A DNA stretch of 64,000 bases from the human T2T-CHM13v2.0 reference genome, Homo sapiens (GCF_009914755.1 NC_060948.1), one strand, 5' to 3'; counted from the stretch's first letter, positions 230-14,313 are shown. Numbers and translations: made by a program. Notes: a model not told the origin generated them from the sequence alone.

Positions 230-3200
230 TTATCTAATCATACTGTGGACTATTGCCAAATCTGCAGCAGTGAAACTCTGGACACATTCTGTGTCTGGTA
301 AAGTCACACTTTGGAACCAAGAAGAATTTCCAGCCTTACTTCCCTTGACAGAGCCTATCGCTAAGACAGTCACAACATAGATCCAGGATAGAATTCCAAC
401 AATAAATCCCTGAGCAAAAACTATAGCTGAAACTGCCATACCATGGATCCTCGATGAAATGCCACCAACAAATCCCTGGAAAAAATACAGCCTGAATATT
501 TAGCAGTAAATACCTGGCACTATCTGAATTTAACCCAGTCTCATTGTGGATCTTGGCTTATTTGTCAGTAGGAAACTACTCTACACAGTTCCATACTGAA
601 ACAATAACACTGTGAACCCACGTTGAGTCTCCAGCAATACTTTCCTGGAAACAGTTGGGAACTGATATAATCACATTAGGGACCCATGCTGAATCACTAG
701 TGATGAATTCATGGATATATTCTTCTATATGTGATACGGTCACAACACCTATCCAGGCTGAATCAGTTATTAAATCACTGGACATACTCTGAAACTGATA
801 TACTCACAACATGGATTCTGGCTGAAACTCTAGGATTAAGTCCCTGGGCACGTGATATGTTCCTACCATGGACCCAGGCTGAAAGTCCAGCAGTATCTTG
901 GATTCAACCATGGATTCTGGGTAGAATGCCAGCAATGAATCCCTGGAGAGAGGCTACAGCTGACATTGTCCTACCCTGGAACCAGGCTGAATTTATGTAG
1001 AAGGAAATGCCTGGACACCGTCTGAAACTTATACAATCACAAAGAGGATCCTGAGTGATTCTCCAGCACTAAATTCATGGACATGGGCAATAGCTGATGC
1101 AGACCAGCTGTGGACCAAACCTGAATTTCCAGCAGTAAATCCCTGGACAAAGTCTGTAGTTGATAGTACTATACCATGGATACAGGATGAGTCTCCAGCA
1201 ATAAATCCATGGACACAGTACGTATCTTATATGATCAAACCATGAGCCCAAAATGACTCTTCAGCAGTAAATCTCTGTACACTACCTGAATCTGATACCA
1301 TTATCCTGTGGACACAAGCTGAGTCTCCAACAGTAAATCCGTTCACAGAGGCTGGAACTTCCACAGTCACACCATGGGCCCAGGCTGTATCTCCAGCAGT
1401 AATTCCACGGACACAGCCTATACTTTCCACAGTCGTACCTTGGACCCAGGTTGAATGTCCATCAGTAAATACCTGGAGAACGTCCATAGCTGATGCCATC
1501 ACACTGTGGATAGGGGCTGAATTAACCGCAGGATATCAATGGATACTGCCTTGGGCTGCTACTGTCACACTGTGGTCACAGTCTGAATCTCCAGCAGGAA
1601 ATCTTTGGACACAGTCTGTGTATGACACAGACACACCATGGCCTCAGGCTGAATCTCCAGCAGTAGTTTGCTGGACAGAACATGTAGCTGATACACACCG
1701 TGGACTCAGTTTGAATTTTTAACAGTAAAGCCTTGGATCCAATCTGTATCTGATACGCTCATACCATGGACCCAGGCTGAGTCTTCAGCACTAAAGCATT
1801 TGACACAGGCAATAGCTTATACAATCAAGCTGTGGAACCAAGTCAAATCACCTGCCATAAATCTCTGGAAACAATATGAAACGAATATGTTCACATGGTG
1901 TACTGAGGTTGAATCTCCAAAAGTAAAGGAGGGGACACATCCTATACCTGCTACAGTTATACCACTGAACCAAGCTGAATCTGTAGGAGTAAATCCCTCC
2001 ACAAAGCTTGAAACAGAAATACTCATACTGTGGACCCAGGCTCATTCTAAAATCAACAATCTCTGTACATATACTCTACTTGATAGAGTGAAACCATTGG
2101 CTAAGGATGTTTGTGTAGCAGTAAACCCATGGAGACAGTCTAAAACTGAAATAGTCACATCATGGGCCCAGGATCTGTTGCCAGCAATAAATCCCTTAAC
2201 AGTGGCTGTACCTGGTATAGTCACACTGCAGTACATGGCTGTATCTCTAGTAATAATTCCCAGGAGAGAGGCTCTAGCTGATACAGTCATAATATGGACA
2301 CAGACAAAATCACCAGCAATCAGTTTCTGGTTGTAACCTCTGCCTGGCACAGTCAAACTATGGACCCAAGCAAAATATACACCCGTTATCACTTGGAACC
2401 AGGCTGAATTTCCAGCTAGAAATCCCATGATACAATCTTAGCCTCCAATTGTAAAGATCTGAACAGAGTCTGAATCTCTAGCCCCAAGTCCTCTGTTATA
2501 GGTGGAGACTGATACAGTCATACCATGGACCCAGACTGAATCTTTGGCAGTAAATCCCTGGACAAAGCCTGTTGCTGATACACTCACACTGTGTACACAG
2601 CCTGTAACTCCATCATTAATCGTTTTTTCACAAACTTTTCATGATACACTGAAAGCATGGGCTCAAACTGAATGCTTACCAGTAAATACCTGGACAGAGG
2701 CTGTAGCTTCCAAAATTATACCCTGGACCCAGGCTGAATTTCCAGCAGTAAATCCTTAGACAGAGCCTTTTGCTCATACGGTAACAATTTTGGCACAGGC
2801 TGTATCTTCAACAGTAAAGATCTGGCCACAGCCTTCATTTAATACAACCAACTTATGTATTTAATACAACCAATCTGAATCTGCAGCATTAATTACATGG
2901 ATACAGCCTGCATCTGATACATACATAGGATTGATCCAATCTGAATCTTCACCAGTGAATTCCTGGAGACTGCCTATATCTAATATATTATCATTGTGGA
3001 CCAAGCCTGTATCTCTAGCAGTCAATCTGTGAATAGAGGCAATAGCTTCCATAGTCATACCTTGGACCAAAGCTTTACTTTTAGAAACAAAACCCTGGAC
3101 ACATCCTGTATCTGATATACTTATGCTGTGGACCCAGGTTGAATCTTCTGCAGCGATTACCTCCACACAGGCAGTATCTGACACAATTATACTGTGGCTG

Positions 3201-3545
3201 CATGCTGCAGGCCTCCAGTAGGAATTACCTGGATACAGACTGATCTGATCTTCTTATATCTTCTTATATCATGAAACAATGATGAATCTCAACAGAAAAT
3301 TCAGGGGCATGGGCTGTAGTTTCCACCGTGTTACCATGCAACCAGTTATCCCTTCAGCAGGAAAAACCTGGACATCTACCTGTGTCAGAATCAATCACCC
3401 CGCAGACCCAGTCTGAGTCTCCAGTAATGAACACATGGACAGAGGCTGCAGCTTCCACACTCTCAAAGTGGACTCATGATGATTTTCCAGATGCAAATGC
3501 TTATACACAGAGCGAAATGGGCACATACTGGACAATGGGTAAAAC
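230..3545 (+). repeat. Degenerate 66-bp (2 x 33-bp) coding tandem repeat, consensus peptide about WTQAESPAVNPWTEAVADTVTP
   Basis: Recurrent 'ccatggacccaggctgaatctccagcagtaaatccctggaca'; caggctg at 1381 and caggttg at 1447 are 66 nt apart; ORF fragments 1800-2336 and 2502-2759 show W about every 11 residues. Confidence 0.92.
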
Positions 3546-3556
3546 TGAAGCTAAGA

Positions 3557-3870
3557 GGCTGGGCGCAGTGGCTCACACCTGTAATCCCAGCACTTTGGGA
3601 GGCAGAGGCGGGCGGATCACGAGGTCAGGAGATCGAGACCATCCTGGCTAACCCAGTGAAACCCCATCTCTACTAAAAATACAAAAAATTAGCTGGGCGT
3701 GGTGGCAGGCACCTGTAGTCCCAGCTACTCGGGAGGCTGAGGCAGGAGTATGGCCTGAACCCAGAAGGCGGAGCTTGCAGTGAACCGAGATTGTGCCACT
3801 GCACTCCAGCCTGGGTGACAGAGCGAGACTCAATCTCAAAAAAAAAAAAAAAAAAAAAAAAAAAAAAAAA
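3557..3870 (+). mobile_element. Full-length AluY with long poly(A) tail and target-site duplication
   Basis: AluY diagnostics 'ggatcacgaggtcaggagatcgagaccatcctggctaac' and 'gcggagcttgcagtga'; poly(A) to 3870; 'tgaagctaaga' duplicated at 3546-3556 and 3874-3884. Confidence 0.95.
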
Positions 3871-3884
3871 CAATGAAGCTAAGA

Positions 3885-11959: not shown

Positions 11960-12250
11960 TTGACTCACCCCGGTAATTCCAGCAATGTGGGAGCTTAAAC
12001 TAAGAGGACACTTTGAGTCCAGGAATTTGATACCAGCTTCAGCAATATAGCAGGACTTCATCACTAAACACGTAAACAAAAACAAAGCCTGGTTGATGTT
12101 GCACACAGGTAGTCCCAGCTATGTGGGAGGCTGAGGCAGGACGATGGCTTGAGCCCAGAGGTCGAGGCTGCAGTAAGTGAAGATTGTGCCAATGCACTCC
12201 AGCCTGGGTGACCAAAGAAGAACTTGTCTCAAACAAACAAACAAACAAAA
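11960..12250 (+). mobile_element. Old Alu (AluJ-like) with (AAAC)n tail
   Basis: 'cttgagcccagaggtcgaggctgcagtaagtgaagattgtgccaatgcactccagcctgggtgac'. Confidence 0.85.
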
Positions 12251-12253
12251 AAA

Positions 12254-12550
12254 GGCCAGACATGGTGGCTCACGCATGTAATCCCAGCACTTTGAGAGGC
12301 TGAGGTGGTGGATCACCTGAGGTCAGGTGTTCAAGACCAATCTGACCATCATGGGGAAACACCATCTCTATTAAAAATACAAAATTAGCCAGGAGTTGTG
12401 GTGTGTGCCTGTAATCCCAGCTACTCAAGAGACTGATGCAGGAGAACTGCTTGAATCCTGGAGGCAGAGGTTGCAGTGAGCTGAGATCAGGCCGCTGTAC
12501 TCCAGCCTGGGTGACAGAGTGAAACTCTACCTTAAAAAAGAAAAGAAAAG
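12254..12550 (+). mobile_element. AluS, immediately tandem to the previous Alu
   Basis: 'ggccagacatggtggctcacgcatgtaatcccagcactttg...gatcacctgaggtcagg'. Confidence 0.9.
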
Positions 12551-14313
12551 TGACCAAAAAGATAATGAAATAGAAAAATTGTGTGATGTAAAATGTTAAT
12601 GGTGATGAAATGAACTGAATTTCTGTGTAAAAGTTATAGATACAAGTTTAAAGTAATGACGAGACAGAAGTGATGAGACAAATCGTAGTCTTATCTTAAT
12701 ACTTAGGGTTTAAATTTAACATATATTCTTAAGGATATAGTCCATTTGTCTTTCTAGGAGGGACCAATGACAATCCAGAAATGTTAGGCGCAAGTGATGA
12801 AAGCTTCCAGCTGTGCCCACCTGTACCCTGACATAGGCAGTTCCATTGTTTGCTTCATTACTCAGGACAAAAACTCTGATGAAATTGTGGTACATCATCA
12901 ATTTTTTTCTTACTACATGATAGAAACTATAACTTTGTTCCTATACAAAGGGGTGTATACTGCATATGCCTAAATGATAAATATAAGTGAATTATTGATC
13001 AGTAGGAAACCATTTTAAAATTCTTTAATTACAGAACAAAGTCTCTAAAAAAAATCTGTTTTTAATCTCTGAGTTTTCTTACATACGATTTCAATCTCTA
13101 GCCATACTGTATAGCTATTATGCTGCTGTACACACAAATCAGACATTCTATATTATTCTCTTATTCTAATAATAGTATCTTTACACCTCAGAGTTTAAAA
13201 CGAGTCTCACCTTTTTCTATTTCCCCAATTAAAATAACTTTTTAACATTTAATCTTCAGTGATTTTTTGTAGTAATATTTTTGAAGGTATTTGATCAGGA
13301 TGATTTATTATGCACTTATCTGATGTCTCCTTTTCTTCTGAATACATGTTTTAATATCTACTTATTAAATCTATGATTAATAATTTGGAATAGGGATTTA
13401 AATCCAAATTCTATGTTGGAATTTACAGGAGTCAGTGAGCCTACGAAAAGCATTTATGTGCAGACCAGTATCTGACAATGGCAGTTGGAGACAAATAGGC
13501 TTCACCAGTCTCAAAGCCCTAGCTACTACAGTGAGTCCACATTTTTCCTGGATATTATCTACTTCAGCAAAAGAAGGTCACTCAATAAACCAGGCCCTTG
13601 TGCCTTGGGTAGAAACTCCGAACTCCTCTAGTCTCCTTAAACAACCAACCACACTGCCACTTTCCTCAATAATAATTACGGCAGCCCAGGGACTTTGGTA
13701 GCCTAGTGACTATAACTACTGATGCCACAGTCTGGTCACAGTATGATAAAACGCCAGAGCATCAACAAGGAAAATTTTGACTTAGCCTTCCAAAATCTAT
13801 CTAAATATACCTTCAATAAATATGGCTTTTCTTCGTAATAACTGCTTTCTACTACTTCCTGAACTAATGCATGGCCTTGGATTGTTTTCATTCTTGAAAA
13901 TGATTCAAAAGTTCATATTTAACATGAACGTGAATGCAGGATTTTATTTATCAGCAAAAAAAATTTTCAAAATGATGCGAAATACAAATGTGGAATTGTA
14001 TTTGTGAATATTAGTCTTTCAAATTATATTTTTATCCCAACTAACTCACACAATGTTTTGTAACTATCTGCATATTCTCCTCAGGTGGGGGAAAAACAGT
14101 ATCAGAGTTCTTGAAGAATTTATGAAAAAGAAAATGACAATACTATACAAGGTTTAACCTATTCACAATACTGTATTTAGTGAATGAAAACATTACTTTT
14201 AAAATCCTACTTAAGTATTGAGTAAATAAATAAAGCATATTATTTCAATAACTCTAAAATACGTGTTCACGAAGACAATACAACAAGGGTTAAAATACAT
14301 AAACAAACAAATG

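What the first reader, a model, noticed from the sequence alone, without database searches (positions are those of the whole stretch)
230..13820. Near-complete fossil of PRSSLY: giant repeat exon fused to two trypsin-like domains
Seen: about 5.9 kb (excluding two insertions) of continuous coding-like repeat sequence with no evident introns, then 8 small exons giving two tandem S1-protease folds, a stop (13701) and AATAAA (13815). The ORF track shows only scattered fragments, so the gene is easy to miss. Known: PRSSLY is described as a testis-expressed gene kept on the eutherian Y with an unusually large first exon, and dead in some lineages. Inference: this is a decayed copy that once encoded a protein of very roughly 2,400 aa or more.
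Basis: partly seen in the sequence, partly recalled or inferred. Interest (0 to 1): 0.85.

Follow-up and report, generated by a model that had tools for sequence, protein, structure and literature searches.

The report
Decayed extra copy of PRSSLY pseudogene
This stretch of the human Y chromosome is a dead, front-truncated copy of PRSSLY, a giant testis gene still alive on the Y of many other mammals; the human pseudogene is already published, but this copy belongs to a larger family of Y copies than was described.

Summary
Window 230-13701 (+) carries a degenerate 33/66-nt (11/22-aa) repeat. It continues as one giant exon to 6923, followed by 8 small exons, a TAG at 13699-13701 and AATAAA at 13815. 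The small exons align colinearly to intact PRSSLY-family proteins and hold two separate trypsin-domain starts.

It is a pseudogene: 2 frameshifts and 2 nonsense codons in the small exons, 3 lost splice acceptors, at least 10 frameshifting indels in the giant exon, and an Alu and a solo LTR inserted. "Near-complete" is too generous. The copy is cut at ~230 against a truncated Alu and lacks at least 0.9-1.7 kb of 5' repeat, which other copies keep.

Human PRSSLY pseudogenes are in print (Hughes et al. 2022, PMC9178871). Their human model is a different paralog, at chrY 10.24 Mb. The window copy is one of 4 near-identical amplicon copies. At least 14 chrY loci carry exons 6-7, in about 6 old lineages, and mostly lie next to homologues of the RBMY2CP 5' flank. 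The last two exons also sit in each ~20.3-kb tandem unit on Yp.

Verdict: an ordinary pseudogene and a new member of a known kind. The multi-copy family is modestly interesting.

The parts
1..225 (+). Old Alu-like element that starts about 45 nt upstream of the window. It lacks its 3' end and poly-A and abuts the PRSSLY repeat, marking the 5' breakpoint of this copy.
   Evidence: Sequence read. The Alu identification is by eye against a recalled consensus. No 33-nt periodicity occurs in the 8 kb upstream.
230..6923 (+). Remnant of the giant first coding exon of PRSSLY, 5'-truncated. It holds a 33/66-nt (11/22-aa, W-T-Q-x-E-type) degenerate repeat to about 6100 and a non-repeat Ser/Cys/Leu-rich tail to 6923. 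Its donor reads CAG|GC.
   Evidence: Periodicity. Window 3952-5055 aligns to bat P0001 aa 112-506 (38% identity, E 7e-60) and 6437-6922 to aa 802-963. At least 9 frame changes along the HSP path. 16 private indels, 13 of them not multiples of 3, a few of which are junction artefacts. Longest open stretch is 231 aa.
3557..3866 (+). Alu insertion inside the giant exon, with an A33 tail at 3838-3870. It is private to this lineage.
   Evidence: Absent at this site in copies G, H, I and M. Poly-A run found.
5238..5699 (+). Solo LTR insertion of 462 nt inside the giant exon, in sense orientation, carrying its own AATAAA near 5636. It is private to this lineage.
   Evidence: Absent in copies E, F, G, H, I and L. 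Full-length 92-94% matches lie on many chromosomes (2899 candidates, 40 scored). Sequence read. The name LTR7/HERV-H is recalled, not tested.
7604..7771 (+). Exon 2, the start of S1 domain 1. It reads WIISTARC, with Arg at the catalytic-His position. No frameshift or stop.
   Evidence: 68% identity to bat aa 962-1020. Pfam Trypsin E 2e-5. AG acceptor and GT donor intact.
8326..8584 (+). Exon 3, with a private 1-nt deletion near 8536 (frameshift). The acceptor AG has become AA.
   Evidence: Frame 1 switches to frame 3 at about 8532. The deletion is absent in the 5 other copies aligned there; H lacks the region. Acceptor read.
8753..8886 (+). Exon 4, open, with canonical splice sites.
9004..9301 (+). 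Exon 5, the end of domain 1 (GDLGAP, with Leu at the catalytic-Ser position) plus the linker. It has TAT>TAG at 9103-9105, TGG>TGA at 9136-9138, an in-frame 3-nt deletion, and acceptor AG>AA.
   Evidence: The TAG is shared with the closest paralog M and the TGA is not.
10746..10881 (+). Exon 6, the start of S1 domain 2 (WILTAAHC). It is open, but the acceptor TCAG has become TTGG.
   Evidence: 77% identity to bat aa 1250-1297. Pfam Trypsin E 2e-9. Acceptor read.
11246..11493 (+). Exon 7, open. The Asp-102 motif NDLAL of the orthologs reads NILEL here.
   Evidence: 74% identity to bat aa 1298-1381. 14 database hits at 65-74% identity.
12758..12889 (+). Exon 8, with a private 2-nt deletion near 12786 (frameshift).
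13429..13701 (+). Exon 9, open, ending in TAG at 13699-13701. The same stop position is kept in all 7 aligned copies.
   Evidence: 68% identity to bat aa 1425-1510. Stop alignment.
13815..13820 (+). AATAAA polyadenylation signal, kept in 6 of 7 aligned copies (ATTAAA in copy F).

Best explanation
Window 230-13820 (+) is a non-functional, 5'-truncated paralogous copy of the Y-linked gene PRSSLY. The ancestral gene encoded a very large protein. It had a long N-terminal array of 11-residue Trp-containing repeats in a single multi-kb exon, a Ser/Cys-rich linker, and two tandem trypsin-fold domains in 8 small exons. Neither domain has a canonical catalytic triad in any intact ortholog examined, so the protein is most likely a non-catalytic binding or structural 'pseudoprotease' of male germ cells (inferred).

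In the lineage leading to humans the gene was duplicated together with its 3' flank, homologous to the 5' flank of RBMY2CP. This produced about 6 old paralog lineages. The window's lineage is the earliest-branching one. It was later copied to 4 near-identical amplicon copies on Yq.

All copies decayed. This one cannot make the protein. It has lost its 5' end, carries two retroelement insertions (one bringing a sense-strand poly-A signal), many frameshifts, 2 nonsense codons and 3 broken acceptors.

Shown: the anatomy, the homology, the lesions and the copy family. Inferred: the protein's non-catalytic role, the order of events and the absence of present function.
For: - Periodic repeat.
- Colinear alignment to intact family members across the giant-exon tail and all 8 small exons.
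- Pfam Trypsin matches exons 2 and 6. Intact orthologs P0001 and P0005 each show two Trypsin stretches. Domain 2 alone is recognised as Trypsin (E 7e-17 to 9e-19 in 3 of 3 short orthologous gene models).
- Named PRSSLY and 'Y-linked serine-like protease-like' proteins are in the same family, and the tree places the window copy inside it.
- Lesions.
- Truncation.
- Copy family: 4 copies at about 100% identity plus diverged ones, all on chrY. 14 of 14 candidates for exons 6-7 lie on chrY.
- Neutral decay: dN/dS is 0.72-1.32 per lineage (window copy 0.86). For pairs that include the window copy, small-exon K2P (0.14-0.17) is slightly below intron K2P (0.17-0.19); among the other copies the two are about equal (0.10-0.16 against 0.10-0.13).
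- Catalytic residues, by motif scan: in 13 of 13 orthologs examined the first of the two C-terminal domains has R, I, S, K or N at the His position. In 12 of 13 it has Leu or Val in the G-D-x-G motif; the axolotl has no such motif. No second GDSGGP-like motif was found in any of the 13. Domain 2 aligns a Pro to the Ser position.
- Literature: human, chimpanzee and rhesus Y carry PRSSLY pseudogenes with truncated ORFs and low transcription (PMC9178871; abstract, sections 5, 7 and 12 in part, and supplementary files 2, 3, 5 and 9 read).
Against: - No primate ortholog such as mouse lemur PRSSLY was available, so orthology rests on non-primate proteins.
- PRSS55, reported as the closest paralog, was not in my tree.
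- Transcription of this particular copy could not be tested, so a non-coding role cannot be excluded.
- The E1 donor reads GC in all 7 aligned copies. I could not tell whether this is an ancestral functional GC donor or a shared lesion.
- Only 44 of 375 candidates were scored, under a stricter filter, so weak autosomal PRSS matches are simply not listed.
Confidence: 0.95

Rival explanations
1. The locus derives from a different two-domain serine protease family (polyserase PRSS36/53, TMPRSS9, ovochymase, PRSS55) rather than PRSSLY.
For: Automatic database names of the closest hits read 'serine protease 52-like', '53-like', 'brain-specific serine protease 4-like' and 'chymotrypsin-like elastase 2A'.
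Against: Those proteins are 65-74% identical to exon 7. One of them (P0038) is 80% identical to the PRSSLY-type bat protein over 298 aa. They fall in the eutherian PRSSLY clade in groupings that follow the species tree (Afrotheria, Xenarthra, Carnivora, ruminants, rodents). Proteins named polyserase, TMPRSS9-like (fish) or ovochymase from outside tetrapods are only 24-28% identical to the family's C-terminal 609 aa. The repeat exon itself matches a PRSSLY-type protein (E 2e-22).
Confidence: 0.01
2. The copy is still protein-coding, either as the whole gene or as a shorter protease-only product.
For: Exons 2, 4, 6, 7 and 9 are individually open, and most splice sites, the stop and AATAAA are kept.
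Against: There are frameshifts in exons 3 and 8, two in-frame stops in exon 5 and three lost acceptors. dN/dS is 0.86. No start region is present. The paper reports no ORF in any human transcript (PMC9178871 supplementary file 3), although that concerns their model.
Confidence: 0.01
3. The dead gene has a present non-coding role, for example as a transcribed pseudogene or lncRNA, or as a regulatory or structural part of the RBMY/TSPY composite units it travels with.
For: The PRSSLY 3' end and its downstream flank are retained in every ~20.3-kb tandem unit seen and next to most copies of the RBMY2CP 5' flank. The paper reports low-level transcription of primate pseudogenes.
Against: Exons diverge about as fast as introns, with no sign of constraint. 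Reported expression is 0-0.23 TPM in human tissues (supplementary file 6 passage). Retention in amplicons is explained by hitch-hiking.
Confidence: 0.08

Closest known systems
Human PRSSLY pseudogene model of Hughes et al. 2022 (BMC Biol 20:133, PMC9178871, supplementary file 9)
   Same: Same gene family, same chromosome and same state (decayed, no long ORF). The visible ~185 nt of the model aligns to window 237-420.
   Different: It is a different paralog. A 26-nt motif of the model matches only chrY 10,243,879-10,243,904 (-). That copy (F) is 84-87% identical to the window copy. By eye the model differs at about 23 of about 185 positions from window 237-420. [quoted passage not shown]
Intact PRSSLY of other eutherians (e.g. 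Peromyscus eremicus TPA protein P0005; bat, mole and sheep 'uncharacterized' proteins P0001-P0004)
   Same: A giant upstream exon of 11-residue Trp repeats, a linker, two S1-fold domains in small exons, and the same substitutions at catalytic positions (TARC and GDLGAP in domain 1, AAHC in domain 2).
   Different: Those are open reading frames of 1041-2547 aa. The window copy is truncated, interrupted and frameshifted. In domain 2 the NDLAL motif has become NILEL.
PRSS55 (reported closest paralog of PRSSLY; PMC9178871 abstract)
   Same: A testis-expressed trypsin-like family member.
   Different: I recall it as a single-domain autosomal protein without a giant repeat exon. It was not available for comparison here, so the relationship is taken from the paper only.
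Polyserases and multi-domain S1 proteins (TMPRSS9, PRSS53, ovochymase)
   Same: Tandem S1 domains, some of them catalytically dead.
   Different: Only 24-28% identity to the PRSSLY C-terminal region, no Trp-repeat exon, and they root outside the tetrapod PRSSLY clade.

Membership tests
PRSSLY (gene family as defined in PMC9178871) | Located on the Y chromosome in eutherians | tested here: met
   The window is chrY. All 54 listed matches of PRSSLY P0005 in the genome are on C24. 14 of 14 exon 6-7 candidates are on C24.
PRSSLY (gene family as defined in PMC9178871) | Most of the ORF lies in one very large upstream exon with no known domain that is alignable only between close relatives | tested here: met
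   230-6923 has no intron. Pfam finds nothing significant in 3 repeat ORFs. The front half aligns to orthologs only in multiple repeat registers, while 3952-6922 is colinear with bat aa 112-963.
PRSSLY (gene family as defined in PMC9178871) | Conserved trypsin-like region in 4-9 small exons (~1750 bp) | tested here: met
   8 exons totalling about 1647 nt. The paper's mouse domain sequence, translated by eye, matches exons 2-4.
PRSSLY (gene family as defined in PMC9178871) | Groups with PRSSLY, apart from other PRSS genes, in a tree | tested here: met
   the human clade (99) lies inside the eutherian PRSSLY clade (100), with marsupial and monotreme PRSSLY-like proteins as successive outgroups. 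Caveat: PRSS55 and PRSS1/2 were not among the rows.
PRSSLY (gene family as defined in PMC9178871) | Testis-specific expression | not testable with these tools
   No expression data here. The paper gives 0-0.23 TPM for its human model.
PRSSLY (gene family as defined in PMC9178871) | Intact open reading frame (functional member) | tested here: not met
   Frameshifts, stops, lost acceptors, two insertions and 5' truncation. It is therefore filed as a pseudogene of the family.
Peptidase S1 / Pfam Trypsin PF00089 | Sequence match to the S1 fold profile | tested here: met
   Exon 2 E 2e-5 and exon 6 E 2e-9. The other 6 exon pieces on their own give no Trypsin match. Orthologs score E 1e-40 to 2e-42 with 2 stretches.
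Peptidase S1 / Pfam Trypsin PF00089 | Catalytic triad His-Asp-Ser | tested here: not met
   Domain 1 reads TARC (Arg for His) and GDLGAP (Leu for Ser), here and in the orthologs. Domain 2 keeps AAHC but has no GDSGGP-type motif and aligns Pro at the Ser position. It works like a pseudoprotease, not an enzyme (inferred).

The most novel reading that the evidence does not exclude
PRSSLY was not simply lost in anthropoid primates. It was first swept into the amplification that built the RBMY- and TSPY-type composite units. This made it a multi-copy Y gene family while its reading frame was still open, and every copy then died independently.

Evidence: none of the window copy's 4 coding or 3 acceptor lesions in exons 2-9 is shared with the other five lineages. 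The majority consensus of six lineages is open through all 8 small exons and the last ~1 kb of the giant exon. The consensus frame switches and one of the two consensus stops in the next ~2 kb upstream trace to single lineages or sub-clades.

Each ~20.3-kb tandem unit on Yp still carries PRSSLY exons 8-9, its poly-A signal and its 3' flank. This would make a dead ancestral gene one of the building blocks of that array.
Probability: 0.3. Interest if true: 0.55.

Novelty: new member of a known kind. Interest (0 to 1): 0.33.

Why it matters
- Annotation: these 13.5 kb, present four times, carry no gene row in the RefSeq table supplied by the hub. At least 14 chrY loci plus about 46 array units hold PRSSLY-derived sequence. 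Some of the array sequence may be what the T2T-Y paper calls new 'fam-*' repeats of the TSPY and RBMY composites (passage; the overlap was not tested).
- Expression estimates: RNA-seq measures for 'the' human PRSSLY pseudogene are confounded by multi-mapping among paralogs that are 78-100% identical.
- Evolution: the copy family records how and when an ancestral X-Y gene died in the human lineage. It also shows that the gene travelled with the RBMY- and TSPY-type duplicons.
- None of this changes the basic verdict. It is a pseudogene of a published kind.

Tried and rejected
- Pfam on three long repeat ORFs gave only sub-threshold noise.
- Tandem Repeats Finder did not detect the 33-nt array. 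Autocorrelation was needed.
- To confirm that the 20.3-kb array is the TSPY array, I scanned 8 of its ORFs against Pfam (0 of 8 had a hit). I also searched the genome for the NAP domain PF00956. None of the 60 listed matches lies in 8.96-9.79 Mb. The identification therefore rests on the T2T-Y paper's description of a single 931-kb array of ~20.2-kb units and is not shown by my own test.
- The majority consensus of the whole giant exon is not open (longest open stretch 449 aa). In the colinear part, checked, the two frame switches trace to single lineages or sub-clades. One stop is carried by only two copies (I and F). The other, a TGA, is shared by G, E and I but not by the window copy (F is deleted there). 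I did not resolve the front 3 kb of repeats, where alignment registers are ambiguous.
- The idea of ancestral RBMX-PRSSLX synteny was dropped. The paper places PRSSLX/Y in stratum 2 and never mentions RBMY.
- Structure prediction, complex prediction, the protein atlas and the representative-protein search were not used. Sequence evidence was already decisive.

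
Full report
**1. What is in the sequence**

On the + strand, 230-6100 carries a strongly degenerate periodic repeat. Among lags 1-139, self-identity peaks at 66, 33, 132 and 99 nt (0.426, 0.396, 0.386, 0.357). The mean is 0.258 and the sd 0.027. Five control stretches elsewhere in the window show no such peak. TGGAC anchors recur every 33 nt or multiples of it. In translation the repeat is an 11-residue, Trp-containing unit of the type P-W-T-Q-x-E-S-P-A-V-N. Tandem Repeats Finder does not see it. 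Stop-to-stop ORFs are fragmentary, the longest being 231 aa at 4405-5100.

**2. Identity**

- One repeat ORF (1692-2336) found a single longer protein, P0001. It is 1513 aa, from a bat, matches at E 2e-22, and carries trypsin-type Pfam domains.
- The C-terminal 609 aa of P0001 retrieved 36 proteins at E <= 1e-10. These include 'TPA_inf: PRSSLY [Peromyscus eremicus]' (73% identity) and the monotreme 'Y-linked serine-like protease-like' entries. Named polyserase, fish TMPRSS9-like and ovochymase-like proteins reach only 24-28%.
- tblastn of P0001, P0005 and P0002 on the window gives a colinear path. Window 3952-5055 matches bat aa 112-506 (E 7e-60). The path continues through the rest of the giant exon to 6922, then through eight small segments up to the stop.
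- Segment identities to the bat protein are 56-83%, apart from one 20-aa piece of exon 8 at 40%. Identities to Peromyscus PRSSLY are 48-69%.
- Exon 7 used as a query returned 14 proteins, all 65-74% identical and all from eutherians, under assorted automatic names.

In a maximum-likelihood tree, six human copies form one clade (SH-aLRT 99). This clade lies within a eutherian clade (100) that contains the named PRSSLY. Marsupial, monotreme, lizard and axolotl homologues branch outside in that order. The tree had 40 rows. 13 of the 47 retrieved proteins were left out: P0019, P0022, P0024-26, P0029, P0031-36 and P0040. It was a quick search with SH-aLRT support only, and PRSS55 was not available as a row.

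All 54 listed genome matches to Peromyscus PRSSLY are on chrY. Only 44 of 375 candidates were scored, under a stricter filter.

**3. Anatomy of this copy**

- E1: 230-6923
- E2: 7604-7771
- E3: 8326-~8584
- E4: 8753-8886
- E5: 9004-9301
- E6: 10746-10881
- E7: 11246-11493
- E8: 12758-12889
- E9: 13429-13701, ending in TAG
- AATAAA: 13815-13820

Pfam Trypsin matches E2 and E6 independently, at the N-terminal part of the profile. So there are two S1 domains, as in the intact proteins, which each show 2 Trypsin stretches. Domain 2 alone is recognised as Trypsin in 3 of 3 short orthologous gene models.

The paper speaks of one identifiable domain type. Its 648-nt 'trypsin-like domain', translated by eye, corresponds to my domain 1.

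**4. Why it is dead**

In the small exons:
- a 1-nt deletion in E3
- TAT>TAG and TGG>TGA in E5
- a 2-nt deletion in E8
- acceptor AG>AA at E3 and E5
- acceptor TCAG>TTGG at E6

In the giant exon:
- at least 9 frame changes along the HSP path
- 16 private indels, of which 13 are not multiples of 3 and a few are junction artefacts
- an Alu at 3557-3866
- a 462-nt solo LTR at 5238-5699 with a sense AATAAA

Both insertions are absent from the other copies.

The copy begins abruptly at ~230, next to an Alu-like element that lacks its own 3' end. The 8 kb upstream has no repeat. Copies F, G, H, E and I continue the periodic sequence for at least 0.9-1.7 kb beyond the equivalent point. So the start codon and promoter are missing.

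**5. The protein that once was (inferred)**

By motif scan of 13 orthologs, the first of the two C-terminal domains has Arg, Ile, Ser, Lys or Asn in place of the catalytic His in 13 of 13. It has Leu or Val in the G-D-x-G motif in 12 of 13; the axolotl shows no such motif. Domain 2 keeps AAHC in therians, but none of the 13 has a second GDSGGP-like motif. Its Ser position aligns to Pro. The family is therefore best read as a non-catalytic S1-fold protein with a huge repeat arm. The window keeps TARC, GDLGAP and AAHC, but has NILEL where the orthologs have NDLAL.

**6. What is already known**

Hughes et al. 2022 (PMC9178871) describe several things:
- PRSSLY is widespread on eutherian Y chromosomes and is testis-specific.
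- It has massive single exons and has been lost or pseudogenised in primates.

I read the abstract, sections 5 and 7, passages of sections 3, 6, 8, 9 and 12, and supplementary files 2, 3, 5 and 9 in part. The finding is therefore of a known kind.

Their human model, however, is another paralog. One 26-nt motif from it occurs once in the genome, at chrY 10,243,879 (-). That copy is 84-87% identical to the window's. [quoted passage not shown] I found no mention of human copy number or of RBMY.

A full-text search for PRSSLY gave 23 papers. A search combining RBMY, serine protease, pseudogene, Y chromosome and ampliconic gave 76 papers with at least 4 of the 5 terms. None of the 15 listed contains 'serine protease'.

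**7. The copy family**

The window copy has three ~100%-identical siblings, at 22.779-22.793 Mb (-), 23.465-23.478 Mb (+) and 26.916-26.929 Mb (+). The T2T-Y paper reports inversions in P3 and P1-P2 in this assembly. That these four are the 'blue' AZFc amplicons is my recollection and was not tested.

An exon 6-7 probe finds 14 loci, all on chrY, with 14 of 14 candidates scored. An exon 9 probe finds 60 candidates, of which 40 were scored. 14 are dispersed and 26 lie in a ~20.3-kb-period array between 8.96 and 9.79 Mb.

I fetched eight diverged copies. They group as:
- W, the window copy, plus M at 8.55 Mb (87-92% identical)
- F at 10.24 Mb and K at 5.91 Mb
- G at 9.95 Mb and H at 6.17 Mb (99%)
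- E at 22.32 Mb
- I at 5.97 Mb and J at 10.15 Mb
- L at 7.35 Mb

Intron K2P is 0.17-0.19 between W and the rest, and 0.10-0.13 among the rest. Small exons are about as diverged as introns. W is sister to the other five lineages (98).

The 5 kb downstream of the gene (14600-19600, which includes the RBMY2CP 5' flank) recurs next to copies F, K and M and next to the partial copy at 7.94 Mb. It lies ~14-15 kb beyond copies G and L. It also recurs at six further chrY loci that I take, from recall, to be the RBMY1 genes, and in the array units.

**8. Order of events**

None of W's 4 coding lesions or 3 acceptor lesions in exons 2-9 is present in the other lineages. The TAG in E5 is shared with M only.

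The majority consensus of six lineages is open through all eight small exons. It is also open through the last ~1 kb of E1, which aligns to bat aa 613-963 in one frame with 0 stops (E 5e-119). Further upstream, the consensus frame switches trace to single lineages or sub-clades.

One in-frame TGA is shared by G, E and I but not by W; F is deleted at that site. So the non-W lineages may have radiated as an already-broken gene, or as one with a shortened ORF.

dN/dS on terminal lineages is 0.72-1.32, which shows no lasting constraint. The common ancestor of W and the rest probably still had an open frame over at least ~4.5 kb. Whether it was functional is open.

**9. Verdict**

It is a pseudogene of a published kind and is ordinary in mechanism. 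The window copy itself is unannotated and is not the published model. The multi-copy family, linked to the RBMY and TSPY units, is a modest addition to what I could find in print.

Noticed in passing
G000:C24 8.96-9.79 Mb (e.g. L025 3044-9079 = chrY 8978044-8984079): Every unit seen of a ~20.3-kb tandem array carries a ~1.7-kb homologue of PRSSLY intron 7 through exon 8, exon 9 and the poly-A signal (80% identity to window 12450-14105). It is followed by 4.4 kb homologous to window 14500-17989 (70-83%). 26 units were listed and about 46 are implied by the 60 candidates. Unit size and position fit the TSPY composite array described in the T2T-Y paper (passage read). My own Pfam and NAP checks did not confirm TSPY there.
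   Followed up: partly
window 6917-6930 and the same site in 6 other chrY copies: The donor after the giant exon reads CAG|GC in all 7 aligned copies. It is either an ancestral GC-AG intron or a lesion shared by the whole human family. No ortholog genomic DNA was available to decide.
   Followed up: no
window 5238-5699: A solo LTR in sense orientation inside the giant exon, with a 31-nt x3.2 internal tandem repeat (5406-5503) and its own AATAAA near 5636. It is present in all four near-identical copies and absent from the six older copies aligned at this site (E, F, G, H, I, L). The family name LTR7/HERV-H is recalled only.
   Followed up: partly
window 14600-18079: A GC-rich stretch (GC 0.50-0.55 at 15001-16000) lies between the PRSSLY poly-A site and RBMY2CP. 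It is conserved at 81-85% at loci that look like RBMY1 genes and at 71-83% in the array units. It is probably the RBMY-type upstream or promoter region.
   Followed up: partly
P0006, P0007, P0016, P0018, P0023 (marsupial, lizard and axolotl homologues): These homologues show a third S1-type 'W-[IV]-L-[ST]-x-A-x-C' motif near residue 63-80. This suggests an extra N-terminal S1-like domain that the eutherian proteins I examined lack.
   Followed up: no
G000:C24 23027139-23027447 and 23230133-23230441: Isolated exon-3-only PRSSLY fragments (52% identity to PRSSLY, 4 stops) lie about 4.5 kb from two inverted copies of the RBMY-type flank. They look like vestiges of the same duplicon.
   Followed up: no
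window 7277-7398 and 7890-7981: (AT)n and (GA)n microsatellites lie in the introns on either side of exon 2 ((AT)n upstream, (GA)n downstream). The 2-nt length differences among the four near-identical copies in 7500-9200 probably lie in the (GA)n run, which is the only one of the two inside that stretch.
   Followed up: no
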